DNA from: a virus
Reading direction: 5' to 3' (one strand)
Virus genome (UHGV): UHGV-0212814
Length of the DNA stretch: 49,586 nt
This document shows positions 1,436-40,712 of the stretch, piece by piece. Positions within the stretch are counted from its first letter, which is position 1, and each line of letters opens with the position of its first letter. The translations under genes were made by a program, and so were the position numbers. The notes below the pieces were generated by a model, which was not told where the DNA came from, did no database searches, and saw only the letters and a program-made list of their open reading frames with translations.

Positions 1436-1780
1436 ATGGGAGAATTTAATAAAATATTTAAATTACTACGACAGACTCGTGGATATTCTCAAGCAGATTT
1501 ATCAGAGGCATTAGAAATCTCAAGAAGTTCTATCAGTATGTATGAAAATGGGAATAGAGAACCCGATTTCGAGACTCTAGAAAAAATTGCTGATTTTTTT
1601 AATGTAGATATAGATTATCTTTTGGGACGTAAGAAAGACACCACGGTAATCCAGTCTCAGATAAGGTTGTATGAACCAACTTATGAGGATATCCAAAGTC
1701 TTATTGCAAGGAACGGAAAAAAACTCACGGTCGAACAAAAACAGGATATCATCAGAACTTTATTATCTGATGATGATTAA
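1436..1780 (+). CDS. XRE-family HTH repressor (ImmR/CI-like)
   Basis: QADLSEALEISRSSISMYENG HTH_3 motif; immediately followed by an ImmA-type protease gene. Confidence 0.8.
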   Translation: MGEFNKIFKLLRQTRGYSQADLSEALEISRSSISMYENGNREPDFETLEKIADFFNVDIDYLLGRKKDTTVIQSQIRLYEPTYEDIQSLIARNGKKLTVEQKQDIIRTLLSDDD

Positions 1781-1794
1781 AGGAGTGGTTTTGT

Positions 1795-2496
1795 TTGGAA
1801 CAATACGACTTTTTCCGCGTTATCTTAGATGCGTATGAAATATGCGGCATCAGAAGTTTTCCTATTGACTGTATAGAAGTCATAAAAAGATTAAAGATTC
1901 CCCTGTTTAAGTATTCTGAGTTATCCGCCAAAAAGGAACGGGAATGTTACAGGGTAAGTGATGATGCATTTAAATTAAAGGGGAAAATTTATTACAATGA
2001 TGCTTTCCCATATATTTATCGCCAACGTTTTACGTTAATGCACGAAGTTGGTCACATACTATTGGGGCATGTTGGAGATACAAAAGAAAACGATGATGAG
2101 GCTGATGACTTTGCCAGTCACTTTCTGGCGCCGCGTATCATGATACATAAATACGGCTACCGGGACGCGGAACAGCTGCATGATGCTTTCGGCCTGTCCT
2201 ATCGGGCCGCCAACCGAGCATTATTGTCCTACAAGGAATGGTTCCGCAACATCTCCTACAGTGCGACTGGAAAGCCCACAAAACCGGAGCTACAGCTTGA
2301 GCATATCTTTTTCCCAGAAGTAGAACTCGTACCAATCCGGCAAGGTATTGTCCAACCAGCCAAGGAATGCTATGTGGATGAAGATTACAAGGAAAACGAT
2401 GAGCGTTCCGATTTTATGAAATTCTTAAGTAGATGGCGCGGAGACTTGGGATTTGGTATGGCAGAAAATAAGTGGCTCTATGGGAATGACTTATGA
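1795..2496 (+). CDS. ImmA/IrrE-family zinc metallopeptidase (anti-repressor protease)
   Basis: HEVGHILLGH HEXXH motif; conserved position downstream of the XRE repressor; TTG start with an AGGAG RBS. Confidence 0.85.
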   Translation: MEQYDFFRVILDAYEICGIRSFPIDCIEVIKRLKIPLFKYSELSAKKERECYRVSDDAFKLKGKIYYNDAFPYIYRQRFTLMHEVGHILLGHVGDTKENDDEADDFASHFLAPRIMIHKYGYRDAEQLHDAFGLSYRAANRALLSYKEWFRNISYSATGKPTKPELQLEHIFFPEVELVPIRQGIVQPAKECYVDEDYKENDERSDFMKFLSRWRGDLGFGMAENKWLYGNDL

Positions 2497-3205: not shown

Positions 3206-3481
3206 GCCGCCCTGCTCCTTGGCCGGATGGGCGACTTACTAAAGTTGTTATAATTCGCCAGGACGGATAGGCTTAATCTATCTCCCGGCTGTCTTGTTAA
3301 GTATATTATACCAAATATACGGAAATTGTCAAATGTGAAAGCGGCCCTGTTACCAGCAGGAGCCGCCCTCACATAGATTTCTCTTACCGGACTGCTCCGG
3401 CACGATATAGTCAACTAACATCTGAATTATATCATTCCTGGAACGTCCTGGCAAGGGGCGTATTATTTATACCCAAAATCA

Positions 3482-3497
3482 GTTGCGATATCGCAAC
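3482..3497. promoter_or_regulatory. perfect 16-bp palindrome GTTGCGATATCGCAAC, 16 nt upstream of the int start
   Basis: the identical palindrome recurs at 6466-6481 upstream of the endolysin. Confidence 0.5.
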
Positions 3498-3513
3498 GGG
3501 AAGGAATGATATC

Positions 3514-4650
3514 ATGCCAAAACGAAAGAAACATCCCAGGCTCCCCAACGGCTACGGCTCCATCCGATACCTTGGCAAGAGCCGGAAGAACCCCTATGCG
3601 GTCCACCCGCCGGCAGACATTGACGGGAACCGGCCTCCGGCCCTCTGTTACGTGGATGACTGGATGAAGGGTTTCATAATCCTCACATCCTACAAGGCAG
3701 GTACCTATACCCCAGGTATGGAGGCCGCCCTGAATCTGCCTAATACCCCCGATACCCTTGATTCCCTGGCAGGGAAAATCATGGCCGATTACAACCGTGT
3801 CAAGGGAATCGAACCTGAGGAACCTGAGAAGACCTTCTCAGCGGTCTACGATGCATTCTATGCCGATAAATTTGCAGAAGGCAATAAATACTCTGCGGCA
3901 ACTAAATATTCAATCAAGGCCGCTTATAAGAACTGTGCATCCCTCTACGGTAAAGTGTTTTCTGCACTCCGTACAAAGGACCTGCAGGATAACCTGGATG
4001 CCTGTGGTCTAAAATATGCCAGCCTGGAACTTATCAGGAATCTGTACAGGCAGATGTATAAATATGCTGACAGTCAAGGGTGGTGCGATAAGGACTATAG
4101 TCAGTATGTTAAAATTAAAAGGGATGACGATGACGAACATGGTGTGCCCTTCTCAGACGCAGACCTGAAAATCCTGTGGGATAACAAAACTGACGAAACT
4201 GCAGAGATGCTTCTCATTATGTGCTATTCCGGATGGCGTATATCAGAATACATTGGCCTTGAAGTCAATCTGCCGGAAAAGTATTTTATGGGTGGAATGA
4301 AAACGGAAGCTGGTAAGGGGCGTATCGTTCCTATCCATTCTGCAATTCTCCCTTTGGTCGGGCGCCGGATGGGAAAGTATGGAAAGCTCCTTCCGTGCAG
4401 CGACAAGGATTTCAGGAAACAAATGGAGGAGCTACTGAACCGGCTCGGAATCCCAGGTGACCCCAAGCATACACCACATGACTGCCGGCATACATTCTCC
4501 ATGTTGTGCGAAAAGTATGAGGTAAAAGAAAACGACCGTAAACGGATGATGGGGCACTCATTCAAAGCCGACATCACCAACAAGGTCTACGGCCACCGCG
4601 ACATGGAAGACCTGAAAAAAGAGATAGAAAAAATAACCGTTGATTTGTGA
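3514..4650 (+). CDS. int: tyrosine site-specific integrase
   Basis: C-terminal HDCRHTFS...MGHS...Y catalytic pattern of phage integrases; 378 aa. Confidence 0.9.
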   Translation: MPKRKKHPRLPNGYGSIRYLGKSRKNPYAVHPPADIDGNRPPALCYVDDWMKGFIILTSYKAGTYTPGMEAALNLPNTPDTLDSLAGKIMADYNRVKGIEPEEPEKTFSAVYDAFYADKFAEGNKYSAATKYSIKAAYKNCASLYGKVFSALRTKDLQDNLDACGLKYASLELIRNLYRQMYKYADSQGWCDKDYSQYVKIKRDDDDEHGVPFSDADLKILWDNKTDETAEMLLIMCYSGWRISEYIGLEVNLPEKYFMGGMKTEAGKGRIVPIHSAILPLVGRRMGKYGKLLPCSDKDFRKQMEELLNRLGIPGDPKHTPHDCRHTFSMLCEKYEVKENDRKRMMGHSFKADITNKVYGHRDMEDLKKEIEKITVDL

Positions 4651-4660
4651 CTTTATTGTG
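4643..4660 (+). repeat. ATTTGTGACTTTATTGTG arm-type repeat (copy 1, overlaps int stop)
   Basis: 17/18 identical to copy 2 at 4853-4870; each copy contains tandem TTGTGAC half-sites. Confidence 0.5.
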
Positions 4661-4852
4661 ACCAATAAACCCTAATAACGTGGTAGAAAGCGGTAGGAAC
4701 CGGAAGTTTCAAAAATGCCGCAAACCCGCATAAAACCTACCATTTTCACCCCATATCTTATATAAATCCTACCATTCTGAAAACCACTCCGTATTAAAGT
4801 GTCGTTAATATTTATGGCCTAAAAAGTACGGTTTTACAAGGTTTTTCAGTGC

Positions 4853-4946: not shown

Positions 4947-5204
4947 TTACTTTCCATGTCCATCCTGAATCCGTTTCCACACCTTCTCAAACTCATCTGG
5001 CGCCGGTTGCGGCACCTCGCCATCCGGGATGTGGTCCCTCACCCACTCAAACTCCTTGAGCAGTCCTTCTGGTGGTTCTTCTGGCGGCTTGTCTTCCTGT
5101 TTCCTTTCCATACCGTGTCCCTCCTTTATAAGGACATTGTACGCCTGTCCAGCGCAAATGGAGCATGGTAAATTATGGTAGTTACCGTCTTTTCTTATAT
5201 CCAT
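4947..5204 (-). CDS. hypothetical protein
   Basis: 85 aa; RBS GAGGGGGG upstream; divergent from the XRE gene at 5298. Confidence 0.45.
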   Translation of the reverse strand: MDIRKDGNYHNLPCSICAGQAYNVLIKEGHGMERKQEDKPPEEPPEGLLKEFEWVRDHIPDGEVPQPAPDEFEKVWKRIQDGHGK

Positions 5205-5297
5205 CTCACAATCCCCCCTCGCTACATATTTTAGGCCAAATTAGAGTAAATTTCAATAGGCCAATACAGACTAAATTATAATGCTCTGTATTGGAGG

Positions 5298-5531
5298 ATG
5301 ATTATGAGATTGGAACGACTACGGGATTTACGGGATGACAAGGATTTGACACAGCAATATGTTGCGGATTACCTGCATATAAACCAACGGACCTATTCCA
5401 GGTATGAGAATGACCAACGGATGATACCGTTCCAGATTCTATCTGCGCTTGCTGATTTATATGACACCAGTGTTGATTATCTGATAGGACGGACAGATGT
5501 TAAGGATCCGTATCCCAAGAAGAAAAGGTAA
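5298..5531 (+). CDS. XRE-family HTH regulator
   Basis: LTQQYVADYLHINQRTYSRYENDQ HTH_3 motif; RBS GGAGGA; a 9-bp inverted repeat CCAATACAG/CTGTATTGG brackets the TATAAT -10 just upstream. Confidence 0.75.
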   Translation: MIMRLERLRDLRDDKDLTQQYVADYLHINQRTYSRYENDQRMIPFQILSALADLYDTSVDYLIGRTDVKDPYPKKKR

Positions 5532-5568
5532 CATTACGGCGAGGACCGATAATCCCCGCCGCTTTTTA

Positions 5569-6411
5569 TTACTCTCCTAGTCCTGGCCAGCGCAACGCCC
5601 CATCCTTATCCGGTGTTAGTGTCACAGGCTCCGTGGCCATCTTACCATCCGGCATCAGGTAATAGTAGTTGCCTCCACCGGCCTGCAGTCCCTGAACCAT
5701 AGCCCCATCCGCGCCCAGGTAGTACCAGTCACCTTTGTACTGATACCAGGTATCGGTGACCATGTGGCCGGTGCCGTCAAACCAGTACCACTTGCCATCC
5801 GTATCAAGGTACCAGGAGTTGCGGACCGGCTCACCGGTATTTCCCAGGTAAAAGCTCCAGGCACCGTCCGCATTCTGCTCCCAGCCGGATTTCCTTGGCT
5901 GCTCCGGCTCCTGGATTACATCATCCTGTATGTATCTACGCACACACACCAGCCCCTTACGCCATCCTCCGGACGCCCAGGAATTGTACCGACTCTTACA
6001 GTAGGCCACCAGGTCCTTATAGGACGGCCTGCCGGAACCGTGACCACAGATAATGCCGTTGCCGCAGTACATCTCCACATGGCCTATCCTGAGTGGCCTG
6101 GAAGCATCCGTACCAGCAAACAGTAGCATGTCCCCCGGCCGGAGCCTGGACGTATCCGGGATGCCTTGGGCTATGTCCGCATCCACGGTGGTCAGCTTTT
6201 TGGACTGGTAGATGCCTGCGGTGTTAAGATTTCCGAATCCCATTCCTACCGCCTCATAGGTAAGGCAGATGGAGCTGCTGCAGTCACTGTAGTAATTACC
6301 ATCCTTATATCGTACATAGCAGTAATCCCTCAGGGACTGGCTGTATATGTTACGGCCTATAATCTCTGCGTACTTATCAATTACGGCCTGTCTCCTTAAT
6401 AATGCTGTCAT
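5569..6411 (-). CDS. endolysin: NlpC/P60-like cysteine peptidase plus C-terminal cell-wall-binding repeats
   Basis: Cys...His...His pattern (CLTYEAVG, IGHVEMYCGNG) and YG/W-rich repeats (GWEQNADGAW, WYLDTDGKWYW, WYQYKGDWYYL). The track ORF runs to a TTG at 6480; the ATG at 6411 has RBS TGGAGGAAAG and is preferred. Confidence 0.75.
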   Translation of the reverse strand: MTALLRRQAVIDKYAEIIGRNIYSQSLRDYCYVRYKDGNYYSDCSSSICLTYEAVGMGFGNLNTAGIYQSKKLTTVDADIAQGIPDTSRLRPGDMLLFAGTDASRPLRIGHVEMYCGNGIICGHGSGRPSYKDLVAYCKSRYNSWASGGWRKGLVCVRRYIQDDVIQEPEQPRKSGWEQNADGAWSFYLGNTGEPVRNSWYLDTDGKWYWFDGTGHMVTDTWYQYKGDWYYLGADGAMVQGLQAGGGNYYYLMPDGKMATEPVTLTPDKDGALRWPGLGE

Positions 6412-7012: not shown

Positions 7013-7345
7013 TCATTTGATGATGTACTGAGCCATCATTGCGATAAGACCGATTGCCAATGCCGCAGCACCGGCCCCAATCATTTGGTTAAATACAGTC
7101 CGTTTCATACTACTCCACCGCTCTCCTGGCTCCGCCTTTAGTTTCTCAATGTCTTCTCCCTGTTTCTTCTGCTCATGGAGCATGTTCCCCATATTGATAG
7201 TCAGTTCTTTTACTGACAGGGCAAGGTCCTGTATAGCCTGATTCTGTACTTCCAGGTCATCAATCCGGTGTTTTGCTGACTTTGTCTCATGTTCCAACGC
7301 AGTAAGTTTTATGGCGATTTCTTCATCATTCACATGTGGCACCAT
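7013..7345 (-). CDS. xhlA: XhlA-family haemolysin-like lysis protein
   Basis: coiled-coil N-terminus plus C-terminal TM (MIGAGAAALAIGLIAMMAQYII), as in PBSX XhlA. Confidence 0.65.
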   Translation of the reverse strand: MVPHVNDEEIAIKLTALEHETKSAKHRIDDLEVQNQAIQDLALSVKELTINMGNMLHEQKKQGEDIEKLKAEPGERWSSMKRTVFNQMIGAGAAALAIGLIAMMAQYIIK

Positions 7346-7350
7346 CCTTC

Positions 7351-7818
7351 CTATGATATTTGGGGCAACCAGATTATCTTAGGCCTGCGCCGTGTAATGC
7401 CTACGTTATAACGTGGCCGCTCCTCACCCCACCATCGGTACCGCAGCCAGTCATCCAGCACAATCCCGGTCAGGGATACCGGCAGCCAGAGCAGGCAGTA
7501 CTGTGGGCATATCTGCCCCAGGACGTTGCCCGGAAGGCCGCTGTAGTCCCATACCCCCCAACCCAGCCACAGGTTGACGATGCACCCGGTCAGGAACTCC
7601 AGCGCCGTCACGATGCAGGCGCCGGTTAGTATCTGCTGCCACAGGGGCATGTCCCAGGGTAATACCTCATTGATTAGTCCCAACGCCACGAAACAGATGC
7701 CGCCCAGAAGGAACATCGTCCAATGGCTCCTGCCGCGCCAGGCCATCTCCAGGATTATGTACAACAGCCCTCCTGTAACCAGCAGGGCCGCATACTTGTC
7801 AACCTTCCGGTGTGGCAT
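7351..7818 (-). CDS. hypothetical 4-TM membrane protein
   Basis: four hydrophobic segments; start MPHRKV with RBS GAGGTGG; the track ORF extends to 7896. Confidence 0.5.
   Translation of the reverse strand: MPHRKVDKYAALLVTGGLLYIILEMAWRGRSHWTMFLLGGICFVALGLINEVLPWDMPLWQQILTGACIVTALEFLTGCIVNLWLGWGVWDYSGLPGNVLGQICPQYCLLWLPVSLTGIVLDDWLRYRWWGEERPRYNVGITRRRPKIIWLPQIS
7402..7416. promoter_or_regulatory. palindrome ACGTTATAACGTGG (second copy of the 35101-35116 palindrome)
   Basis: 14-15 of 16 nt identical to CCACGTTATAACGTGG at 35101. Confidence 0.35.
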
Positions 7819-8539
7819 CCGTTCCACCTCCTGCAATTGTAGTAATCTCCACCAAGTAGGCCTTAAGCACATCTGACTGATACTGCTCCGGCACATCGGC
7901 GCCGTAGAATATCTCGGCTACCTCATCCGTGGTCTGGCAGCCAGCAATCCACATGTTAAGTGCGTTACAGTACGTGGTGTGATAGGACACATGCCACATG
8001 GCCGCCTGGATGATGGCCTGCATGTCTGCCGCGCTGTAATACCTGCAGGGCTGTCCATCGGCATGGTACTCCAGCTGAGTTGCCCCGGCAGTTATCTGGC
8101 TCAGCTTACCGAACAGGTTAAGCTGGTCCTCGATGGTCAGAGCATAATGCTCCACGCTGCCATCAGCCAACGCCACGTTGATACCGGCATAGATAAGCCC
8201 CTCACACTCCGCTGCCACCTCCCGGCGCTTACCTGCCTGCAGCTCCCCCAAGGTCGGGACATAAGGTTCCGGAGGCTCCCCTGGTCCATCCGGCGTATCA
8301 GGTGCCTGATACACGCTGCCATCATTGGACAGATACACCGTCTGTCCATCGTCCCGATACACCGTGTCATACCCGGTTAGGGTTGCTGCCTCCGTGCCAT
8401 CCTCGGTGTAGATGGTGATGTCTCCCCAGGAGATGGGCACGGGGTCGGCAAACACAATCTGCATGACATTGGGAGACATGGGGCGGATACCCTTAATCTC
8501 ATACAGCGGCTCATCCTTTCCTATTCTGATTTTTTCCAT
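7799..8539 (-). CDS. hypothetical tail-associated protein
   Basis: 246 aa from the ATG with RBS GAAGGT; lies between the fibre genes and the lysis cassette. Confidence 0.5.
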   Translation of the reverse strand: MEKIRIGKDEPLYEIKGIRPMSPNVMQIVFADPVPISWGDITIYTEDGTEAATLTGYDTVYRDDGQTVYLSNDGSVYQAPDTPDGPGEPPEPYVPTLGELQAGKRREVAAECEGLIYAGINVALADGSVEHYALTIEDQLNLFGKLSQITAGATQLEYHADGQPCRYYSAADMQAIIQAAMWHVSYHTTYCNALNMWIAGCQTTDEVAEIFYGADVPEQYQSDVLKAYLVEITTIAGGGTDATPEG

Positions 8540-8610
8540 GTTTTTACCTTCTTTCTGCATTTTTATGTATTATAAAAGGCCCTTGGAGGGCCTGAATTTT
8601 CGTTTTTGCT

Positions 8611-9207
8611 GTGTGTTATACCAATTTAGATGGTAGGACTGCAGTGGCTGATTTGCTTGCAATTGCTAATATTGGGCCATCTGGTAGACGGATTGTACAA
8701 TGCAATGAAAACACGCTTAATACACCGTATGAGGCAGGACTGACCAATGGTAAAAGTGGCACAGCATACATCAACATGTCATCTGTCGATTATGGGACAA
8801 TATTATATATCGTATCTGGGACTAATCGGATATTTTTGCGGTCCAAAGATAACGGAATCTGGAGTAATTGGGGTGAACTCTTAAAAAAAGCGGATTATGA
8901 AGCAAAAAAAATCACTAATTCTTACGGCCTTACAATAGTTTTATTTACGTTTGGCAGTGATACTATTAAAGCAATAAAAATCGGGGGATATGTAAATAAA
9001 GCCCTGTCTGCGGGTACAGCATATACTATTGCTACTAATACTGAGGTCAAATCCCGCGTGGAATGGTATCACAATATACATTGTGGTATCAACGGAATAA
9101 ATACAGTTGCCTATCTGCGTATTACTACAGATGGAAATATTGTACTTACGCCACAAACAGCAATTGCTTCTGGAGTTGGCATAAATATCGCAGAGTATTA
9201 TGTATAA
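8611..9207 (+). CDS. start-less alternative tail-fibre C-terminal cassette (silent in this orientation)
   Basis: 198-codon open frame in low-GC DNA with no ATG or SD; convergent with the fibre gene; begins exactly at a 12-bp inverted repeat shared in frame with that gene; contains a W..W motif similar to the fibre C-terminus. Confidence 0.4.
   Translation: MCYTNLDGRTAVADLLAIANIGPSGRRIVQCNENTLNTPYEAGLTNGKSGTAYINMSSVDYGTILYIVSGTNRIFLRSKDNGIWSNWGELLKKADYEAKKITNSYGLTIVLFTFGSDTIKAIKIGGYVNKALSAGTAYTIATNTEVKSRVEWYHNIHCGINGINTVAYLRITTDGNIVLTPQTAIASGVGINIAEYYV
8618..8629. repeat. inverted repeat ATACCAATTTAG (left copy)
   Basis: its reverse complement lies at 9660-9671; both encode T-N-L in frame. 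Confidence 0.6.
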
Positions 9208-29242: not shown

Positions 29243-29527
29243 CTATAATCTGTATTCCGCAGGAATCTCAACATTAACCGCAGAATCTAACAACCTGAAA
29301 TTACTTATATCGGGGAGATAAAACAGCTCCTGTTTTCCGCTATCCTTGACGATTGCAATTCCTTGTTTTCCGTAAACTGCTTCCCCTTCTCTGTTGGCCC
29401 CATCAAACAGCCATCTATCCCCCAAATCCTTAATTGAACATAATCCGGTATCTCCATATCCTGTTTTAAAGTACTCCATTGCAGCCTTACATGCTTCTTC
29501 AAATTTCATCCTTATCACCCGCCTCAC
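29243..29527 (-). CDS. small protein downstream of the MuF toxin-like gene (candidate immunity protein)
   Basis: 88-94 aa; overlaps the MuF gene stop; followed by a terminator. Confidence 0.4.
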   Translation of the reverse strand: MRRVIRMKFEEACKAAMEYFKTGYGDTGLCSIKDLGDRWLFDGANREGEAVYGKQGIAIVKDSGKQELFYLPDISNFRLLDSAVNVEIPAEYRL

Positions 29528-31115
29528 AAGCAGTTATGCCTCTATCTGAGGGCTCAATATTATCAATTCTCCAAAACTTCGTTTTTCCCTCTTGCACATA
29601 ATCAAAAATCTCGCTTGAAAATTCTTTGCCTGATTGTACATCATAAAAATGGACTTCCTTATCCCTCATCTCCGCGACAAAGACATGACCGTTAGCACTA
29701 TTTTTCCATCTAACTGATACCTCTGCCCTTGCTCCATCCTGCCATTCCCTCAATGTTCTTTTAATATCATTTAATCCACTTTCCGCGGTTTCTCGTACTT
29801 CCGGATTTATCCAGGCTTCCTCTGGATGTCTCTGTAAATAATGATTTCCCTTAATTGGCTTTGCAGTTACATTATACCCTCTCCTCCGCATTTCATAGGC
29901 AGAAACACAGTTTGTGCAGTTTTCGCTGTATCCGTTCTTTACATAATGTTTAAAATTCGGATTAACACTGTTAAGAGGGACTTCATCCTCATGTATCCGC
30001 TTCCAATTTTTGGGTATGCCTCCATATATGGTTCCCTTTTCTTTTATTATATCAGAATTATATGTCTTTTCAACCACGAACTGTTTTTCCCATTCCCTAT
30101 TCTTCATGTCAGAGGGAACATAATATGTTTTCCCACTACTGTCTCTGGCGGCTCTCATCTCACCCTCCGTAAATTCGTCGTCAAAATACGGCACCGTAGT
30201 GGACCTGCAGTTTGGGTGGAAGGGCGGCGCCGTAGTCCCGACTTCATAATCCTTCATGTCAAAGACCTTGCCGTCCATATCCCTGCATATCTCAGAAGTC
30301 TGACCATCCAACGTGGCCAGGATTTCATACTTCCCCACCCCCAGCCCCTTCAGGCAGTCCCTCTGGGCCGCCGAAGAGATGGCTGCTGACTCGGTCATGA
30401 TGAGACGCCCGGCCTGGCCCCGGCTGACCTCCATGGTCCTCAACAGGCTGTCTATGGCCTTCTGAGGTGACTCACCACGGATGATGTTCTGGGTCAGTTC
30501 GGTATGCAGGTTCCTGACCAGCTTATCCTTATTGGTCCAGATACGGCTTGAGAAGTTTTCCCCATCCTGTGCCCAGGGATGCCTGATGATGGCATCCATC
30601 CTCCGGTCATCCAGCCGTGCAAGGTTGGTACCCACCCCGGTTCCCTTTGCCACCTCAAAAGCGGTCCGGTAATACTGTTCCCTATAGGCTTCATGCAGAT
30701 AATCCGTCATGCCTCCATCAAACTCCGTTGACAGCAGTTCCGCATGCTGCTGCATCTGGAGCTTCATGGCCTCCAGGTATGAGATGTGGTGCCGGGCGGA
30801 TGCATTCTCCAGTTCCTTCATCCAGCGCTGGTCCACGGCATTTTCCTTGCCGGCCTTTATGTAATCCTCGACCGTCCATTTAAACTCTTCCAGTTCATCC
30901 TTTTTAAGCAGCTTCTTGGCCCCGGCATAGCTGACCCCATTATTGTCGGCCAGGCGCTGATACCACCGCATAACGTCCATCTGTATGCTGTTGGTCGCCC
31001 GCATGTATTGCCTCTGGACATCCTTGTAGTAAGCAGCACCGCGCTGGTACTGGTCATCCTCCAGGGCAGCCATGCGTTTCCCCCAATAGTCCTTATTCTT
31101 TGCCGCGGGACCCAC
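29499..31115 (-). CDS. MuF/SPP1 gp7-like minor head protein fused to a C-terminal toxin-like domain
   Basis: N-terminal Phage_Mu_F features ending in the HPNCRSTTVPYF motif. A roughly 200-aa extension follows, with a papain-like Cys...His...Asp/Gln order (NCTNCVSAY, GHVFVAE, FYDVQ). The start is uncertain: GTG at 31115 or ATG at 31073. Confidence 0.75.
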   Translation of the reverse strand: MGPAAKNKDYWGKRMAALEDDQYQRGAAYYKDVQRQYMRATNSIQMDVMRWYQRLADNNGVSYAGAKKLLKKDELEEFKWTVEDYIKAGKENAVDQRWMKELENASARHHISYLEAMKLQMQQHAELLSTEFDGGMTDYLHEAYREQYYRTAFEVAKGTGVGTNLARLDDRRMDAIIRHPWAQDGENFSSRIWTNKDKLVRNLHTELTQNIIRGESPQKAIDSLLRTMEVSRGQAGRLIMTESAAISSAAQRDCLKGLGVGKYEILATLDGQTSEICRDMDGKVFDMKDYEVGTTAPPFHPNCRSTTVPYFDDEFTEGEMRAARDSSGKTYYVPSDMKNREWEKQFVVEKTYNSDIIKEKGTIYGGIPKNWKRIHEDEVPLNSVNPNFKHYVKNGYSENCTNCVSAYEMRRRGYNVTAKPIKGNHYLQRHPEEAWINPEVRETAESGLNDIKRTLREWQDGARAEVSVRWKNSANGHVFVAEMRDKEVHFYDVQSGKEFSSEIFDYVQEGKTKFWRIDNIEPSDRGITACEAGDKDEI

Positions 31116-35093: not shown

Positions 35094-35122
35094 TTGACTC
35101 CCACGTTATAACGTGGTATAAT
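35094..35122 (+). promoter_or_regulatory. near-consensus promoter TTGACT-17-TATAAT with palindromic spacer CCACGTTATAACGTGG
   Basis: a perfect 16-bp palindrome occupies the spacer (operator-like). Confidence 0.55.
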
Positions 35123-35152
35123 TGTATTATCAAAAGGAAAGGAGGATAGCCG

Positions 35153-35266
35153 ATGGGTAAGAAACAAAAGAAAAATGAGAACTTGTTCAACCAAATAATC
35201 AAAGCCATGGTCGCCACCGCCGCTCTGATTACCGCAATCGCACAGTTGATACAAGCTCTCAAATAG
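35153..35266 (+). CDS. 37-aa basic/hydrophobic peptide (MGKKQKKNENLFNQIIKAMVATAALITAIAQLIQALK)
   Basis: RBS AAAGGAAAGGAGG; strong promoter; followed by hairpin GGGGAGA-gaaa-TCTCCCC; type I toxin-like architecture. Confidence 0.45.
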   Translation: MGKKQKKNENLFNQIIKAMVATAALITAIAQLIQALK

Positions 35267-35470
35267 GACACCGGGGAGAGAAATCTCCCCTCCTAATAAA
35301 ATCTTACCACATCAGCTAAATTTAATCAATGAAGTTTGATACAGTACTATTAATATTCACCCTTATTTACGCCCTCGGTACAGATTGGTCCATCCCGTCA
35401 TGCATTCTTGTGATATGCTGCTCCATTTATGTACTGTGCTGTACACTCCCCAGGATAAGGAGGTCATACC

Positions 35471-35662
35471 ATGAACTTAAAAAAGATAAGAAATAACCAT
35501 GGCTTAAGCATCCGTGCCCTGTCCGAATTGGCCAACGTACCACAACGGACAATCGAAGACATAGAGAGGTTTGACCGTTGCAAGGTAGATACTGCAATCA
35601 AACTGGCGGATGCCTTGGGCGTCACACTGGATGAACTCTGTAGGGATGAGGCGGCCGAATAG
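35471..35662 (+). CDS. XRE-family HTH regulator
   Basis: LSIRALSELANVPQRTIEDIER HTH_3 motif. Confidence 0.7.
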   Translation: MNLKKIRNNHGLSIRALSELANVPQRTIEDIERFDRCKVDTAIKLADALGVTLDELCRDEAAE

Positions 35663-35733
35663 GCTGCCTTTTGTTTGTTTTGGGGTATGTAAAAGAGCCG
35701 CCCGGAGGTGGCCCTTAATCTTATAGTATGTAA

Positions 35734-36060
35734 TTAACAACGACTGACAATATCATTTAACCACGAGATATGACTTTCAAGGCTTCGCTTCTTTGCCAAC
35801 AGCTCTGGATTTTGCTCTAACTCTCTAAAACTCTTTAAAGCATCATTTAGTTGCGCATAAGCTTCCTCAATTTTTGAATCGCGCTCAAACTCTTTTGACA
35901 ATTCCCACAACACTTCTTTTTGGGCAACATCTTCTCTTTTTTTATTAAAGAGGTCTTTTAAATCTTCGTACTCTTCTAGCTTCTTATTTCTCAAATTTAA
36001 ATATTCATTTTTTATGTCGCTCAAAAACTCTTGCCGATTAATATCTGTCCAGCTTTCCAT
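35734..36060 (-). CDS. hypothetical coiled-coil protein (low-GC cassette)
   Basis: 108 aa; about 38% GC against about 53% phage background. Confidence 0.5.
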   Translation of the reverse strand: MESWTDINRQEFLSDIKNEYLNLRNKKLEEYEDLKDLFNKKREDVAQKEVLWELSKEFERDSKIEEAYAQLNDALKSFRELEQNPELLAKKRSLESHISWLNDIVSRC

Positions 36061-36149
36061 GTAAATACCCCCACAATCTTTTTTCTATTATCATACACCA
36101 AAATCTGACATAAGAAAATCCCCTGCCAAATTTTTATCCGGCAACACAT

Positions 36150-36716
36150 TTAGAACCTCGGTAAATTCTCATTAATCTCTTTCACAGATTCTTCTGATAT
36201 TTCATTAGCACATACTTTCTCATTAACTTTTTTCTTCTCACTAAGCAACAGACTAATAATTATGCTAATAAATCTATAAGAATTACATGCAAAGTTAAAA
36301 ATAATCCCTATCCATAGAAAAATCACTATCTTTAATACTTCTTGTCCAAAATCGTCACTTAGATAAAGTAAAACTGACAACAAAATACCACTAAGCCCAG
36401 ACAATACCACACTTTTTATTTTACCTACGAATACATCCATATTAGCGTTTTCAATAAAATATTTGACCATGGTATCATTTTTAGCCGATATTAAAGAAGG
36501 GATTAAAAAACCAAATATGCTGATAATAATTGACATGCACGTTATCAATGCTGTAAGCATATCACTGAATAACGAATTTTTACATATTTGTAAAATCTGG
36601 ATTTTTTGTTTGACTTCGGCAAAAAGTAAAATGCTTATTATAGTCATTGGAATTATTAAAGCATAATGTGAATACCAAAAAGCATGAAAATCTCCTTTAC
36701 CCCCTATTTCATTCAT
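36150..36716 (-). CDS. 4-TM membrane protein (low-GC cassette)
   Basis: 188 aa; four hydrophobic helices plus a cytoplasmic C-tail; follows the 302-aa gene by 6 nt. Confidence 0.6.
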   Translation of the reverse strand: MNEIGGKGDFHAFWYSHYALIIPMTIISILLFAEVKQKIQILQICKNSLFSDMLTALITCMSIIISIFGFLIPSLISAKNDTMVKYFIENANMDVFVGKIKSVVLSGLSGILLSVLLYLSDDFGQEVLKIVIFLWIGIIFNFACNSYRFISIIISLLLSEKKKVNEKVCANEISEESVKEINENLPRF

Positions 36717-36722
36717 TTAACC

Positions 36723-37631
36723 TCACCCTTTTTTTAATAAATTAGCTATTTGTGCCCTTGAGCCTCCTTCACTATATTTTTTAGACATCTCTTTAGAAAG
36801 CGTATAGAAGGACAACTCCCCTCTTGGCGGAACCTTATAATTAATCTTATCATTTAAGATATTTTGTAATAAATCAAATACCTCCGACTTTTGATCATCA
36901 CTCAATGTTATTCGGGCAGAAGAAATTAATTCTCGGTTATCTCCACTCCTTATTTCCCGAACTATTCCTTGCATCGTTTCAGCCTCCAACTCATCATGAT
37001 GACCATAATTATATCCCAAGCCAAATTCAAGATGTGCCGTCTTGCATTCCACCTGATTACATAATTTAATAATATCCTCAAACGTTTTGCTATTCTTAGA
37101 TACTAAACTGCGGGTATTAGCAAAACGAACATCCAGTTTCAAAAATTGTTTTTTTAACAAATCAACATTGTCATAGTCATAGTCAATTGGCCTGAAATAG
37201 CATAGATTACCATCCCCAATAAAACTATTCACATAGCTTTGTAAAGCAAATGTTCCATAACTACCTCGATTGCATTGAACCATTGCAACATGATATCTTG
37301 GATCATACAATACAACTGTATTCTTCCCAATATACTCATTTTCTCCAAGATCCACATGGCGAGCCATTGTGTCTGGAGCCAATACATATGTATTACTTAC
37401 AACATCTAAACGCATAAAATTCAATACATAAAACTCATCATTATGCACTAAAGCAATATTTTCAAGGCGCCCACTAATTCCATCAATATCTTTTATACGA
37501 TCTTGCAACGAAAGTGATTTTAGCCTCCCTATCCATTCACGTAAATCATAAGTATATTCCGTTGTTTCATCTCCTATAATTGTACACAGCTGATAATACT
37601 GATACTTAATAGTGACTCTTTTTCCATCCAT
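36723..37631 (-). CDS. 302-aa cytoplasmic protein (low-GC cassette; candidate defence sensor/effector)
   Basis: about 33% GC; own extended -10 promoter TGTGATATAAT (37661-37673) and RBS GGGGAGA. Confidence 0.6.
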   Translation of the reverse strand: MDGKRVTIKYQYYQLCTIIGDETTEYTYDLREWIGRLKSLSLQDRIKDIDGISGRLENIALVHNDEFYVLNFMRLDVVSNTYVLAPDTMARHVDLGENEYIGKNTVVLYDPRYHVAMVQCNRGSYGTFALQSYVNSFIGDGNLCYFRPIDYDYDNVDLLKKQFLKLDVRFANTRSLVSKNSKTFEDIIKLCNQVECKTAHLEFGLGYNYGHHDELEAETMQGIVREIRSGDNRELISSARITLSDDQKSEVFDLLQNILNDKINYKVPPRGELSFYTLSKEMSKKYSEGGSRAQIANLLKKG

Positions 37632-37799
37632 ATCGTTCTCCCCAATTCGACGTTTTTCTTACATTATATCACACGCCGAATGGAAAGAATATACAAATAT
37701 CCCCCTCCCAATTCCACAAATCTTACAAAAACATACCCATATCTTCTCTTCGTAACCAAAGTATAGAACATATGTTCTGTCGAGTCAAGGGTCAAATAA

Positions 37800-37832
37800 T
37801 AAAAAGGACATCTTATTTCTAGGATGTCCTAA
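37800..37832 (-). terminator. intrinsic terminator AGGACATC-N10-GATGTCCT plus TTTTTATTATTT
   Basis: 8-bp stem followed by a T-run on the minus strand. Confidence 0.55.
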
Positions 37833-38105: not shown

Positions 38106-38606
38106 CTAATCCAACATGAGGGCATCCGCCCCAAAGAGATATACGCTGAGTATTCCCGTAAGCTCTGTTATCCACCGTCTGGCCGTCCGTTCCCCATATC
38201 CATAAATCTCTGCAATACTCTCATATGTCATCCCATCCAGATAGAAATACTTGAATGCCAGATACTTCTCATGCGTATTCTTTCGGCACTCCTCGTCCTC
38301 CAGGAGTTGCAGGCACTTGTCTATGTGTCCTATCATGACAATACTCCGGAGCTTACTCTTGAGGATGCTGTTAATAAAGATATCTTCCTCCGTGAACTCC
38401 TCCAGTTCATCGCCATTATCCATGTCGGACAGTTCTGCCACCCCCTCCTCCACGCTCTGACAAATGCGGTTATAATTCTCCATCAGCTTCTTGGTGTTCT
38501 GGAATACCTTTATTCTCTTTTCCCTCCGGAGCTGCTTCTCATGCTCCTTAAGGGCTTCCTTCGCGGCCAGCCTGGCCACCTCCTCCAACGCTTCTGCCTG
38601 TTTCAT
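38106..38606 (-). CDS. sigma-70 region-4-like / ArpU-type late-gene regulator
   Basis: C-terminal HTH YESIAEIYGYGERTARRWITELTGIL; start MKQAEAL with RBS GGAGGAGGTG; the track ORF extends to 38690. Confidence 0.5.
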   Translation of the reverse strand: MKQAEALEEVARLAAKEALKEHEKQLRREKRIKVFQNTKKLMENYNRICQSVEEGVAELSDMDNGDELEEFTEEDIFINSILKSKLRSIVMIGHIDKCLQLLEDEECRKNTHEKYLAFKYFYLDGMTYESIAEIYGYGERTARRWITELTGILSVYLFGADALMLD

Positions 38607-38723
38607 CGGCATCACCTCCTCCCACATCCAGGTACGGACACGCCCAACACCCGTACCGTATCCTGCCCTTATTGTTGCGCTGTCCATCACAGCTGTGGTG
38701 CCCGTTGTCTATGTAGCACTGTC

Positions 38724-38924: not shown

Positions 38925-39186
38925 CCGACGCCTCCTTCATATCGAAAATATCAGTTTAAGGGAACAACTTTCCCATTTACAAATCGAAACACTGATGCAT
39001 CCGCATCGGTGAATCCTCTTACCACATCTTTTTTTATCGGTACAGCTTGCCATTCATACTGTAGATACGCTCCCCATGCAGCACGCCTTATAGACAATTA
39101 CAAATGTCATATTCAAAATGACATATGACACCTAACTTATTAATACATAAAATGATACAATATAGATAAATTCAGGAGGTGAAAAT

Positions 39187-39588
39187 ATGAAATGGTATTT
39201 ATTATCACATCTTCTAAACCTTTATGTTTTACCCGTAACGGGTTATATGATTTTAAAATATATCTTTGTAGATGCCGATATTTTTGCTTATGAGGAGGCG
39301 CTGTTTTTTGGTTATATTCCATTAGGTTGCTTCTTGATTTCTTTTGTTTATGGTCTACGCAAAAGGAAATCTCCTTTTTCTTATTGTTTTGTATGTTCGT
39401 TTTTATGTATTCCCTTGGCGATTCTTGATAGTACCGCAAAAGATGGGCTTTTTAACTACATATCAGTAATATCATTTCTGTATTATACATATTTTTTAAT
39501 AGCATTCATGGGTAACATCACGGCTCTTGCCATCTATTCGGGCTGTGCTGCTATCAAAAAAATTTGGAATATAATCACAAAACGCTAA
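39187..39588 (+). CDS. AT-rich 4-TM membrane protein (moron)
   Basis: RBS AGGAGGTG; extended -10 TGATACAAT upstream; opposite strand to the surrounding genes; about 33% GC. Confidence 0.55.
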   Translation: MKWYLLSHLLNLYVLPVTGYMILKYIFVDADIFAYEEALFFGYIPLGCFLISFVYGLRKRKSPFSYCFVCSFLCIPLAILDSTAKDGLFNYISVISFLYYTYFLIAFMGNITALAIYSGCAAIKKIWNIITKR

Positions 39589-40712
39589 TTTTGAGAAATA
39601 AACCCGCCTGTAAAAAAATCTATCTGCCCAGGCAAGTCTACTCCATCCGGTACATTCTCCCACTCAACGCCGATGTAATCCAGCACCCGGCCCCAACCGA
39701 ATTTCTCTCCAGTCTCTGGGTCCGTACAACAGCGGTACATCCAAAACTCCCATTCTTTCTGATTCCTGACTCGCAACTGGTCAAACCGATGTGGTCGCGT
39801 CTCCATGTGTACGCCAAATCCGCACATGCTGCACCCGGTCCGCTGCGCCCCTGTGGTGTACAGGGTTCCATCTGGCCTGCGCTCGATGGTGCCGTATATC
39901 TCCGGTACCGGTGCCTCCAGGTCAAGAGCCAGCTGCAAGATATCCTGGCGCAGGAATGGCGCAAATGGCGCACTACGGATAACCCCCTTGCCGAAATAGT
40001 TACAACCGTGTTCTGTCAACGCTTCCTCCCGCTGCCCCCCTTCTGACGCCATCAGCCCCAGGTAGGGCCGGCTCTTGTGTTCTTTTGCCCACTTGTCGCA
40101 AGGCTGTTCTTTCATGTATAAGCAACACTTGTTACTGACCTTGAAAGGTGCAATCCTATAATTCACACCTTCATTCTCATTTTCATATCCCGCGAATAGT
40201 TCCAGCCATTTCTGTGGTAATTTCATGCGACTGTTCTTGGCATAATGCCCCTGGACACCACACTCGCCAGTAATGATGGCATGACGTACAGTCTTATTTT
40301 TCTCAGTTGGGCGTTGCAGTGTATCAATCCTACCTGCAACCTTTTTTGAGATGACCGGGAATCCATACTCCTGTAAAATCTGTATCTTGGGTTTTCCCGG
40401 GGCTATCGGTATCACTCCTAGTTCCCGATGTATCCGCTGGATGCTCTTATCCTCCAGTGCTGATACCGATATGGCCGGAACGTCTATGCCAATCTTCCGC
40501 AGAAACAGCAACAGCACAATACTGTCCAGCCCACCAACGCTCACATGGGCGTTCAGTTCCATGTCGTCCAGTTTCTCTATGTACTCCCTAGCCCGTAATT
40601 CTGCCTGCTTTATCTTCACCTCATAGGGCAAGGCCTGCATGGCTACCATCTGGGCTTTCTTCTTTTTTTTCTCTTCTTTCCACTCTTCTGTGGTTAATTC
40701 TGTCTTTTCCAT
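39585..40712 (-). CDS. PAPS-reductase-family (PP-loop) protein
   Basis: SVGGLDS PP-loop motif (SGGxDS); 375 aa; common phage replication-region accessory. Confidence 0.7.
   Translation of the reverse strand: MEKTELTTEEWKEEKKKKKAQMVAMQALPYEVKIKQAELRAREYIEKLDDMELNAHVSVGGLDSIVLLLFLRKIGIDVPAISVSALEDKSIQRIHRELGVIPIAPGKPKIQILQEYGFPVISKKVAGRIDTLQRPTEKNKTVRHAIITGECGVQGHYAKNSRMKLPQKWLELFAGYENENEGVNYRIAPFKVSNKCCLYMKEQPCDKWAKEHKSRPYLGLMASEGGQREEALTEHGCNYFGKGVIRSAPFAPFLRQDILQLALDLEAPVPEIYGTIERRPDGTLYTTGAQRTGCSMCGFGVHMETRPHRFDQLRVRNQKEWEFWMYRCCTDPETGEKFGWGRVLDYIGVEWENVPDGVDLPGQIDFFTGGFISQN

What the first reader, a model, noticed from the sequence alone, without database searches (positions are those of the whole stretch)
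35734..37631. Low-GC three-gene cassette (302-aa protein plus 4-TM protein plus coiled-coil protein) with defence-like architecture, between the lysogeny-side regulator and the late activator
GC is about 33-38% against about 53% for the phage. The cassette has its own extended -10 promoter (TGTGATATAAT) and a strong terminator. The arrangement is a cytoplasmic about 300-aa protein immediately followed by a 4-TM membrane protein. This mirrors two-gene abortive-infection designs such as RexA/RexB and Kiwa, and it sits in the equivalent position near the regulatory genes. No specific family is recognisable by eye.
Basis: inference. Interest (0 to 1): 0.7.

Follow-up and report, generated by a model that had tools for sequence, protein, structure and literature searches.

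The report
RexAB-type exclusion pair in gut prophage
A low-GC insert in a human-gut Enterocloster/Lachnoclostridium prophage encodes a protein with the fold of phage lambda's RexA, followed by a four-helix membrane protein. It is most likely a RexAB-type anti-phage exclusion system, and it gives the uncharacterised family DUF6731 a probable function.

Summary
Three intact minus-strand ORFs (302, 188 and 108 aa) lie in a 32.8% GC island within a 48.9% GC window. The island has an extended -10 promoter and is bracketed by terminator hairpins.

The 188-aa protein (B) is a 4-TM bundle. It starts 6 nt after A and is paired with A in every complete locus sampled, down to 24% identity. It shows no detectable homology to RexB. 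The 108-aa gene (C) occurs only in near-identical phages and is not part of the core.

The pair sits in a variable cargo slot between a putative late regulator and terS, about 31 kb from the real immunity region. Kiwa membership was tested and not met.

Verdict: a RexAB-type two-gene module, a new member of a known kind. The defence function is inferred, not shown.

The parts
37800..37829 (-). Terminator-like hairpin upstream of the cassette. It insulates the cassette from read-through from the putative late-regulator gene.
   Evidence: AGGACAUCC...GAUGUCCU followed by UUUUUAUUAUUU; -12.6 kcal/mol, z -3.9, 0 of 200 shuffles fold as well. Sequence read.
37760..37788 (-). Candidate promoter 1: TTGACT-17-TATACT.
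   Evidence: 10 of 12 consensus matches in the scan. This is a consensus match only; function is not shown.
37663..37673 (-). Candidate promoter 2: extended -10 (TGTGATATAAT, i.e. TGn-TATAAT) with a weak -35, about 32 nt upstream of the start of A.
   Evidence: Read directly. A GGGGAG Shine-Dalgarno lies 8 nt before the ATG at 37631.
36723..37631 (-). Gene A: 302-aa cytoplasmic DUF6731 protein with the RexA fold. Proposed sensor/activator.
36150..36716 (-). Gene B: 188-aa integral membrane protein with 4 TM helices and a charged C-terminal tail. Proposed membrane effector, a RexB analogue.
   Evidence: Hydrophobic segments at 15-33, 54-72, 95-113 and 127-145. AF2 helices at 7-35, 48-77, 93-118 and 125-158, pLDDT 78.8. 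It starts 6 nt after the A stop codon, and its Shine-Dalgarno overlaps the end of A. It is paired with A in every complete locus. A and B co-diverge, r 0.88. No homology to RexB was detected.
36123..36144 (-). Hairpin in the B-C intergenic spacer: a possible partial terminator or attenuator that separates the core pair from C.
   Evidence: -11.6 kcal/mol, z -3.65; listed as terminator-like.
35734..36060 (-). Gene C: 108-aa acidic, highly charged helical protein. A lineage-specific passenger of unknown role, not part of the conserved system.
   Evidence: Homologues occur only in L001-3 and L032/33 and the same two viral contigs. There are no family hits. In L032/33, two 1-nt indels create a mechanical 137-aa ORF around the same MESWTD start.
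35693..35716 (-). Terminator hairpin after C. It is bidirectional and shared with the convergent plus-strand HTH unit.
   Evidence: -14.3 kcal/mol, z -3.8, followed by UUUU. The plus-strand scan also flags 35697-35712.

Best explanation
Genes A and B form a RexAB-type two-component phage-exclusion (abortive-infection-like) module. It is carried as accessory cargo by a temperate siphovirus-type prophage of Enterocloster / Lachnoclostridium pacaense.

A is a cytoplasmic protein with the two-domain RexA/RdgC-like fold. It probably forms a dimer that senses an incoming heterologous phage, whether through a phage protein or a replication/recombination DNA-protein intermediate.

B is a small 4-TM inner-membrane protein with predicted N-in/C-in topology. 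Its positively charged TM2-TM3 loop and C-terminal tail would face the cytoplasm. When activated by A, B compromises membrane integrity or potential. That arrests the infected cell and aborts the superinfecting phage.

The module would be expressed from its own promoter(s), independently of the phage's lytic programme, so it can act in the lysogen.

Shown here:
- the fold and remote homology of A to RexA;
- the 4-TM nature of B;
- tight gene coupling and universal co-occurrence of A and B;
- cargo-slot behaviour of the insert.

Inferred by analogy with lambda RexAB, mycobacteriophage Sbash/CarolAnn and P. putida RexABpp:
- the anti-phage function;
- the sensor-to-effector direction;
- membrane damage;
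- expression in the lysogen.

Gene C is a lineage-specific passenger, not a system component.

For: 2. Sequence.
- A 79-sequence DUF6731 profile against a 21-sequence RexA profile scores 39.2, P 7.8e-5, over 260 collinear columns (17-311 against 2-277).
- Reversed and 40 block-shuffled controls reach at most 23.6 over at most 49 columns.
- The conserved anchors align in order: L..DDEYIG with RexA L82..D85-E86-x-L88-G89-F90; P148 with P136; F170 with F151; and the C-terminal M..Y helix.

3. Partner. B is a 4-TM protein. It starts 6 nt after A, in rexA-rexB order. A 164-195-aa multi-TM ORF follows A at -14 to +39 nt in every complete locus of 44 examined. These include relatives at 24-27% identity in Bacillus, Peribacillus, Psychrobacillus, Sporosarcina and phage AP45. 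A and B pairwise identities correlate at r 0.88, with 0 of 2000 Mantel permutations reaching that value.

4. Mobility and context.
- The pair occurs in phages with three different terminase types and in a non-phage element.
- Among 80 phages sharing the flanking regulator, the regulator-terS spacer runs from 137 nt (empty) to 3.4 kb. It is low in GC when filled, and only the two near-identical contigs carry A+B.
- Alternative cargoes include a TIR-like effector, DUF4062, DUF2971/PDC-S31 and HicAB-like genes.
- HicAB lies directly upstream of A in L008-10, as it lies in the same prophage as P. putida RexABpp (PMC12894663).
- Neighbours of the distant chromosomal pairs include PD-Lambda-1, Abi_alpha, AbiLi and AbiEii-like genes.

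Against: - No experimental evidence exists for any DUF6731 protein.
- PADLOC 2.0 gives no hit.
- Pfam RexA is not hit by any of 35 members at E<=10. Shallow profiles see nothing. The best profile-profile probability is only 61%.
- B has no detectable sequence or fold link to RexB (hhalign probability 1%; no RexB in the BFVD Foldseek search). The effector half therefore rests on analogy only.
- A is acidic (pI 5.8) whereas RexA is basic (pI 8.6), so DNA binding may not be conserved.
- The module is not in the immunity region and is not co-transcribed with the repressor as in lambda. Expression in the lysogen rests on consensus promoter matches, which are not enriched over shuffled sequence (21 found against 15.8 +/- 3.8 expected).
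- Co-divergence of A and B would also follow from simple linkage.
- Defence-type neighbours are mixed with housekeeping genes.
Confidence: 0.62

Rival explanations
1. Reversed-role (Butters-type) Rex-like system. The cytoplasmic RexA-like protein A is the toxic or antiviral effector, and membrane protein B merely sequesters or silences it until infection releases it.
For: Mycobacteriophage Butters gp30/gp31 works this way according to PMC12894663. Everything shown here (fold of A, 4-TM partner, co-occurrence) fits either direction equally well.
Against: Four of the five described Rex-type systems use the membrane protein as effector. B is highly conserved in its TM2 and loop regions, with 23 invariant positions in 21 sequences. 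That suggests an active role rather than a passive anchor.
Confidence: 0.12
2. Not defence. The pair serves the prophage's own life cycle, for example by stabilising the commitment to lytic growth as RexA does for the lambda CI/Cro switch. Alternatively it is a recombination modulator like RdgC, with B as a membrane tether.
Against: - The pair is absent from 78 of 80 phages that share the same regulator and backbone, so it is dispensable for the life cycle.
- It moves between unrelated phage backbones and into non-phage and chromosomal contexts.
- It is 31 kb from the immunity switch.
- The obligate 4-TM partner is not expected for a switch or recombination factor.
Confidence: 0.1
3. A membrane-acting addiction (toxin-antitoxin-like) or superinfection-exclusion module that blocks DNA entry. 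B would be the toxin or entry blocker and A its cytoplasmic regulator, with no abortive-infection logic.
For: It is a small 4-TM protein beside a cytoplasmic partner in an accessory slot. TA modules (HicAB) occupy the same slot or lie adjacent. B gives a weak PHROG hit to a 'moron membrane protein' family over one TM helix.
Against: The specific RexA homology of A points to the Rex mechanism. Known Sie proteins are usually single membrane proteins. There are no TA-family hits for A or B.
Confidence: 0.1
4. A Kiwa-type system: a 4-TM KwaA-like sensor plus a DNA-binding KwaB-like effector that blocks phage replication and late transcription without killing the cell.
For: The general design is the same, a 4-TM protein plus a cytoplasmic protein of about 300 aa (Kiwa preprint 10.1101/2023.02.26.530102). 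One UniRef record names homologue P0077 'DUF4868 domain-containing'.
Against: - No KwaA/KwaB PADLOC hit at E<=1.
- No DUF4868 hit in 35 members at E<=10.
- The gene order is the opposite of kwaA-kwaB.
- KwaB has an N-terminal Rossmann-like domain, which the A model lacks.
Confidence: 0.03

Closest known systems
Phage lambda RexA/RexB exclusion system (RexA Pfam PF15969, PDB 8TWQ; RexB 4-TM)
   Same: - The gene order is the same: cytoplasmic protein first, then a small 4-TM protein.
- The sizes are similar (302 and 188 aa against 279 and 144 aa).
- It is encoded by a temperate phage.
- Both B and RexB have their most positively charged loop between TM2 and TM3.
   Different: - About 10% identity; Pfam RexA is not hit.
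- B shows no detectable relationship to RexB.
- A is acidic (pI 5.8 against 8.6).
- The host is Bacillota, not Enterobacterales.
- It is not in the immunity region and not co-transcribed with the repressor. It has its own promoter(s) and sits in a cargo slot before terS.
- An extra lineage-specific third gene is present.
Pseudomonas putida prophage P1 RexABpp (PP_5643/PP_5644), Sci Rep 2026 (PMC12894663)
   Same: - It is prophage cargo.
- A HicAB module lies nearby, as in loci L008-10.
- Experiments showed that both genes are required for defence and that the membrane protein is the growth-arresting effector.
   Different: It comes from a different phylum. RexABpp lies downstream of a CI-like repressor; this cassette does not.
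Actinobacteriophage Rex-like pairs: Sbash gp30/gp31, CarolAnn gp44/gp43, Butters gp30/gp31
   Same: They are two-gene prophage-encoded pairs of a cytoplasmic and a membrane protein that exclude heterotypic phages. Their position and orientation relative to the repressor vary, as here.
   Different: No sequence comparison was made here. Butters reverses the roles of the two proteins. The hosts are Actinobacteria.
Kiwa (KwaA/KwaB)
   Same: A 4-TM membrane protein plus a cytoplasmic DNA-binding protein of about 300 aa. A membrane-associated anti-phage design.
   Different: The gene order is the opposite. The KwaB Rossmann-like and DUF4868 domains are not found in A. There are no PADLOC or Pfam hits. 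The mechanism (non-abortive block of replication) would differ.
RdgC recombination-associated protein (PDB 2OWL)
   Different: The match is much weaker than to RexA. RdgC is a housekeeping ring-shaped dimer with no membrane partner.

Membership tests
RexAB-type exclusion systems (as used in PMC11077077 and PMC12894663) | The cytoplasmic component has the RexA two-domain fold: a split globular domain plus an inserted dimerisation domain. | tested here: met
   [not shown]
RexAB-type exclusion systems (as used in PMC11077077 and PMC12894663) | The adjacent gene encodes a small inner-membrane protein with four TM helices. | tested here: met
   Four hydrophobic segments. AF2 4-helix bundle, pLDDT 78.8. 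6-nt intergenic gap. The partner is conserved in all complete loci.
RexAB-type exclusion systems (as used in PMC11077077 and PMC12894663) | Carried by a temperate phage or prophage as non-essential cargo. | tested here: met
   Integrase, repressor and ImmA genes are in the window. 78 of 80 phages sharing the flanking regulator lack the pair.
RexAB-type exclusion systems (as used in PMC11077077 and PMC12894663) | Both genes together exclude heterologous phages, and the membrane protein causes growth arrest or membrane damage when triggered. | not testable with these tools
   This needs plaque assays and membrane-potential or permeability assays.
RexAB-type exclusion systems (as used in PMC11077077 and PMC12894663) | The RexA-like protein dimerises and binds DNA non-specifically. 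| not testable with these tools
   No multimer or DNA modelling tool was available. The pI of 5.8 gives no support for DNA binding.
Pfam RexA (PF15969) sequence family | Scores above the Pfam gathering threshold for PF15969. | tested here: not met
   No PF15969 hit at E<=10 for any of 35 DUF6731 members. The relationship is seen only in a profile-profile comparison (P 7.8e-5, probability 61%). A is therefore a superfamily relative, not a PF15969 member.
Pfam RexB (PF15968) / lambda RexB homologues | Sequence or fold homology of the membrane partner to RexB. | tested here: not met
   No Pfam hit for B. hhalign of the B family against lambda RexB gives probability 1%. The BFVD Foldseek search returned no RexB. 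The afdb50 library was unavailable.
Pfam DUF6731 (PF20505) | Full-length match above the gathering threshold. | tested here: met
   E 1.1e-36, 127 bits against a cut-off of 27, residues 7-288 on profile positions 5-289 of 295.
Kiwa (KwaA + KwaB) | KwaB with a DUF4868 domain and KwaA 4-TM, detectable with PADLOC/Pfam models, in kwaA-kwaB order. | tested here: not met
   No PADLOC hit for A or B at E<=1. No DUF4868 hit in 35 members. The order is cytoplasmic protein first. No KwaB-named chain appears in the structural hit lists.

The most novel reading that the evidence does not exclude
DUF6731 and its obligate 4-TM partner define a large, previously unrecognised Bacillota-wide branch of a RexA superfamily, with about 840 clusters at 50% identity. 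This branch has diversified into several lineages that compete for the same prophage cargo slot; a second divergent RexA-like + 4-TM pair sits in the same slot in sister phage L110.

Because the B partners are unrelated in sequence to RexB, the RexA-like sensor may have been coupled repeatedly to different membrane effectors. On that reading 'Rex' would be a modular sensor platform rather than one two-gene system. The acidic A protein might sense something other than DNA.
Probability: 0.3. Interest if true: 0.65.

Novelty: new member of a known kind. Interest (0 to 1): 0.5.

Why it matters
Rex is the oldest known phage-exclusion system, yet only five Rex-type systems have been described, and none in Bacillota (PMC12894663).

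Linking DUF6731 to RexA would have three consequences:
1. It gives a probable function to a family of about 840 sequence clusters, which is common in human-gut Lachnospiraceae prophages and in Bacillales. The exact protein A occurs on more than 120 assembled contigs.
2. It adds a detection model that is missing from the defence-annotation library tested here (PADLOC-DB 2.0, 2023).
3. It offers tractable test cases, for example the cultured Aeribacillus phage AP45 gp35/gp36.

It also maps a variable cargo slot (late regulator to terS) in this phage group that could be mined for further candidate defence genes.

Tried and rejected
- PADLOC, NCBIfam and PHROGs on A, B and C: nothing informative beyond DUF6731 and phrog_10865 'unknown function'.
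- PDB sequence searches with the profiles A1 and A4: only noise.
- hhalign of the shallow alignment A1 against a single RexA sequence and against the RexA alignment: no signal. The signal appeared only after the DUF6731 alignment was deepened through the 1.84-billion-representative search.
- B against RexB by hhalign and by Foldseek against BFVD: no relationship. The afdb50 library was not available.
- The UniRef label 'DUF4868' on P0077 could not be reproduced, so the Kiwa reading was rejected.
- The apparent absence of B in L015 and L037-39 was an artefact of my ORF filter. B is intact there.
- The 137-aa version of C in L032/33 is a mechanical extension caused by two homopolymer indels.
- I considered the 63-aa HTH as a dedicated regulator of the cassette. 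I rejected it as obligatory because it also occurs in slots without A+B (L070, L081, L108) and is absent beside most A+B pairs.
- I considered B as a holin. I rejected this because the endolysin-like gene is 30 kb away and B always travels with A rather than with lysis genes.
- L050-type cargo (327 aa + 224 aa 4-TM): no detectable link to DUF6731 or RexA.
- Literature searches for DUF6731 and PF20505: zero papers.
Full report
**1. The observation**

The three ORFs exist exactly as reported, all on the minus strand:
- A: 36723..37631, 302 aa
- B: 36150..36716, 188 aa
- C: 35734..36060, 108 aa

GC falls to 0.28-0.38 across 35.7-37.8 kb. It is 0.328 for the cassette and 0.489 for the whole window. 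The quoted TGTGATATAAT is present at 37673-37663 and is a true extended -10 (TGn-TATAAT). A GGGGAG ribosome-binding site lies 8 nt before the start codon of A. A second sigma-70-like site lies at 37788-37760.

Three hairpins fold much better than shuffled sequence:
- one upstream of the cassette (37829-37800, -12.6 kcal/mol, U-rich tail);
- one between B and C (36144-36123, -11.6 kcal/mol);
- one after C (35716-35693, -14.3 kcal/mol, UUUU).

The cassette is therefore an insulated, compositionally foreign transcription unit. Promoter-like matches as a class are not enriched over shuffles in this AT-rich stretch (21 found against 15.8 expected), so promoter function remains an inference.

**2. 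Context**

The window is a temperate siphovirus-type prophage laid out on the minus strand:
- replication genes at 40-49 kb;
- a 194-aa HTH/sigma-r4-like protein at 38106..38690 (phrog_1558, function unknown; 'late activator' is plausible but unproven);
- the cassette;
- terS, terL, portal and MuF from 35.0 kb downward.

The genuine lysogeny module is at the far end, about 31 kb from the cassette. It consists of an HTH_3 repressor (1436..1780), an ImmA/IrrE peptidase (1795..2496) and an integrase (3514..4650).

The 63-aa HTH next to the cassette belongs to a separate plus-strand mini-unit with its own near-consensus promoter.

The exact proteins are annotated in Lachnoclostridium pacaense / Enterocloster as hypothetical or 'DUF6731 family' (WP_227116902-904). 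Protein A occurs on 123 assembled contigs.

**3. What A is**

Protein A is a full-length member of Pfam DUF6731 (E 1.1e-36). PADLOC, NCBIfam and PHROGs give no functional hit, and no paper in the library mentions the family.

*Structure.* An AlphaFold2 model built on 35 homologues is confident (pLDDT 85.4, pTM 0.75).
- Foldseek against the PDB puts lambda RexA (8TWQ) first, with probability 1.00 and E 4.5e-6 over the full length. E. coli RdgC comes next.
- The RexA structure paper describes a split globular beta-rich domain interrupted by a four-stranded alpha/beta dimerisation domain, with RdgC as the structural relative (PMC11077077). The order of secondary-structure elements in the A model reproduces this layout.

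*Sequence.* At first nothing linked the two families:
- Pfam RexA was not hit by any of 35 members at E<=10.
- Shallow profile comparisons were blank.

I then deepened the DUF6731 alignment using an exhaustive profile search. That search found 841 representatives at E<=1e-3, 339 at E<=1e-10 and 115 at E<=1e-30. From it I built a 79-sequence alignment with Neff 6.0.

Against a 21-sequence RexA alignment, hhalign now returns one collinear, end-to-end alignment: 260 columns, DUF6731 17-311 against RexA 2-277, score 39.2, P 7.8e-5, probability 61%.

Controls show this is not background:
- reversed alignments score 17-18;
- 40 block-shuffled RexA alignments average 18.6, with a maximum of 23.6 over at most 49 columns;
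- the unrelated B family scores 14.8.

The alignment places the most conserved DUF6731 motif (L95..E99-Y100-I101-G102) on RexA's near-invariant L82..D85-E86-x-L88-G89-F90. It also pairs P148 with P136 just before the RexA hinge, F170 with F151, and the C-terminal M..Y helices.

I conclude that A is a remote homologue of RexA: a superfamily relative, not a PF15969 member.

**4. What B is, and whether A and B belong together**

B has four hydrophobic segments. Its model is a four-helix membrane bundle with a disordered, charged C-terminal tail (pLDDT 78.8). By the positive-inside rule, the N-terminus, the TM2-TM3 loop and the C-tail carry 12 Lys/Arg against 3 on the other side. This predicts N-in/C-in topology, and lambda RexB likewise carries its most basic loop between TM2 and TM3 (inference).

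B starts 6 nt after the A stop codon, and its Shine-Dalgarno overlaps the end of A.

Evidence that the two genes form a unit:
- I examined 44 loci from exact-match, genome and viral-contig searches. In every complete one, a 164-195-aa multi-TM ORF follows the DUF6731 gene at -14 to +39 nt.
- This holds for relatives at only 24-27% identity in Bacillus, Peribacillus, Psychrobacillus, Siminovitchia and Sporosarcina.
- It also holds in the cultured Aeribacillus phage AP45, as gp35/gp36 directly upstream of terS.
- Pairwise identities of A and B across 26 loci correlate at r 0.88, with 0 of 2000 Mantel permutations reaching that value. Linkage alone could contribute to this.

B shows no detectable relationship to RexB, either by profile comparison (probability 1%) or by Foldseek against viral structure models. 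The same was true of the experimentally validated P. putida RexBpp.

**5. What C is**

C is acidic and 41% charged, probably helical. Homologues occur only in the near-identical phages L001-3 and L032/33 and nowhere else. Other A+B pairs are followed by unrelated small ORFs or by nothing. With the hairpin between B and C, this makes C a lineage-specific passenger. The conserved system has two genes.

**6. Cargo behaviour**

The pair is found in phages with three different terminase types, always just upstream of the packaging genes. It also occurs in a non-phage element beside a 1657-aa PBECR3 protein.

Using the flanking 194-aa regulator as a handle, I collected 80 related phages. Where terS could be located:
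- the regulator-terS spacer ranges from 137-242 nt (empty) to 3.4 kb;
- filled spacers have GC of 0.30-0.38;
- only the two near-identical contigs carry A+B+C.

Alternative cargoes:
- a TIR-like protein (PADLOC effector, 4.9e-7);
- DUF4062;
- DUF2971/PDC-S31 candidates;
- a HicA/HicB-like pair (read from the sequence; no family scan was run on it);
- a P-loop ATPase;
- two further '~330 aa + 4-TM' pairs.

One of those two pairs (L110) is itself a distant DUF6731/RexA relative: hhalign P 7.7e-5 to DUF6731 and P 0.005 to RexA. Its membrane partner shares phrog_17119 with AP45 gp36. The other (L050) has no detectable link.

HicAB lies directly upstream of A in L008-10. Neighbours of ten distant chromosomal pairs include PD-Lambda-1, Abi_alpha, AbiLi and AbiEii-like ATPases, resolvases and conjugation genes, but also ordinary housekeeping genes. 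The context is that of a mobile accessory, defence-flavoured module. This evidence is circumstantial.

**7. Mechanism**

The best-supported model follows the described Rex-type systems. A cytoplasmic RexA-like protein detects infection and activates the 4-TM partner. The partner then damages membrane integrity or potential and arrests the infected cell.

- Shown here: the fold and homology of A; the topology of B; gene coupling and co-occurrence; mobility.
- Inferred: the anti-phage role; the direction of signalling (Butters phage reverses it); the nature of the membrane lesion; expression in lysogens; DNA binding, for which A's acidic pI gives no support.

**8. Comparison and novelty**

- Kiwa was tested and rejected.
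- Membership of Pfam RexA and RexB is not met.
- Membership of the broader, structurally defined 'RexAB-type' class is met for every feature that could be tested.
- According to the 2026 paper, only five Rex-type systems have been described, in Enterobacterales, Actinobacteria and Pseudomonas.
- I found no publication connecting DUF6731 to RexA, though the library does not cover subscription journals.

I therefore rate this a new member of a known kind. It is not mechanistically surprising, but it is a useful annotation of a sizeable orphan family that is abundant in gut Bacillota prophages, and experiments to test it are straightforward.

Noticed in passing
window 35094-35712 (+ strand): A separate mini-unit convergent with the cassette. 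It has a near-consensus promoter (TTGACT-17-TATAAT with an upstream TG, 11 of 12 matches), a 55-aa hydrophobic ORF (35329..35496) overlapping a 63-aa XRE/HTH_3 gene (35471..35662), and it ends at the shared bidirectional terminator. The HTH recurs after A+B in L008-10/L040, but also in slots lacking A+B (L070, L081, L108). Its role is unknown, and it is not the immunity repressor.
   Followed up: partly
window 39000-39600: A second low-GC island (about 0.32) carries a plus-strand 133-aa multi-TM ORF (39187..39588) wedged between minus-strand phage genes. It has no Pfam or PHROG hit and may be another moron.
   Followed up: partly
L110 6812-9250 (sister phage, same regulator-terS slot): A 330-aa protein that is a distant DUF6731/RexA relative (hhalign P 7.7e-5 to DUF6731, P 0.005 to RexA), followed by a 153-aa 4-TM protein (phrog_17119, the same PHROG as AP45 gp36) and a 283-aa TIR-like protein (PADLOC TIR effector, 4.9e-7). 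This is a second, divergent Rex-like lineage in the same slot, possibly with an added effector.
   Followed up: partly
L050/L051/L052/L066, about 7083-8721: Another '327-aa cytoplasmic + 224-aa 4-TM' pair in the same slot. It has no hit in Pfam, PADLOC or PHROGs and no detectable link to DUF6731 or RexA. It is an orphan candidate two-gene module.
   Followed up: partly
L129 (Aeribacillus phage AP45, NC_048651) 3270-4756: gp35 (325 aa; DUF6731 profile, 1.8e-45) and gp36 (168 aa; multi-TM; B-family profile, 1e-8) sit directly upstream of terS in a cultured phage. Both are annotated as hypothetical. This is a ready experimental model for the family.
   Followed up: yes
window 29499-31115 (- strand): The MuF-like head-morphogenesis protein also carries a Gln_amidase (PF15644) toxin-type domain, according to the precomputed Pfam hits for the identical contig L001. 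It is a MuF-toxin fusion of the kind reported in temperate Firmicute phages.
   Followed up: no
L008-L010, about 5190-5815 (L008 coordinates): A HicA/HicB toxin-antitoxin pair lies immediately upstream of the DUF6731 + 4-TM pair. The same association of a HicAB module with a RexAB-type pair in one prophage was reported for the P. putida P1 prophage.
   Followed up: no
window 36021-36149 versus L032 7483-7896: Two single-base homopolymer indels (A6/A5 and G5/G4) between near-identical phages switch the region upstream of C between a 42-aa overlapping ORF and an in-frame 29-codon extension of C. This is probably non-coding spacer containing the B-C hairpin.
   Followed up: yes
window 39585-40712 (- strand): A 375-aa PAPS-reductase-like gene is the only stretch with more than 80% DNA identity to a cultured phage (Clostridium phage Villandry, host Enterocloster clostridioformis).
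   Followed up: no
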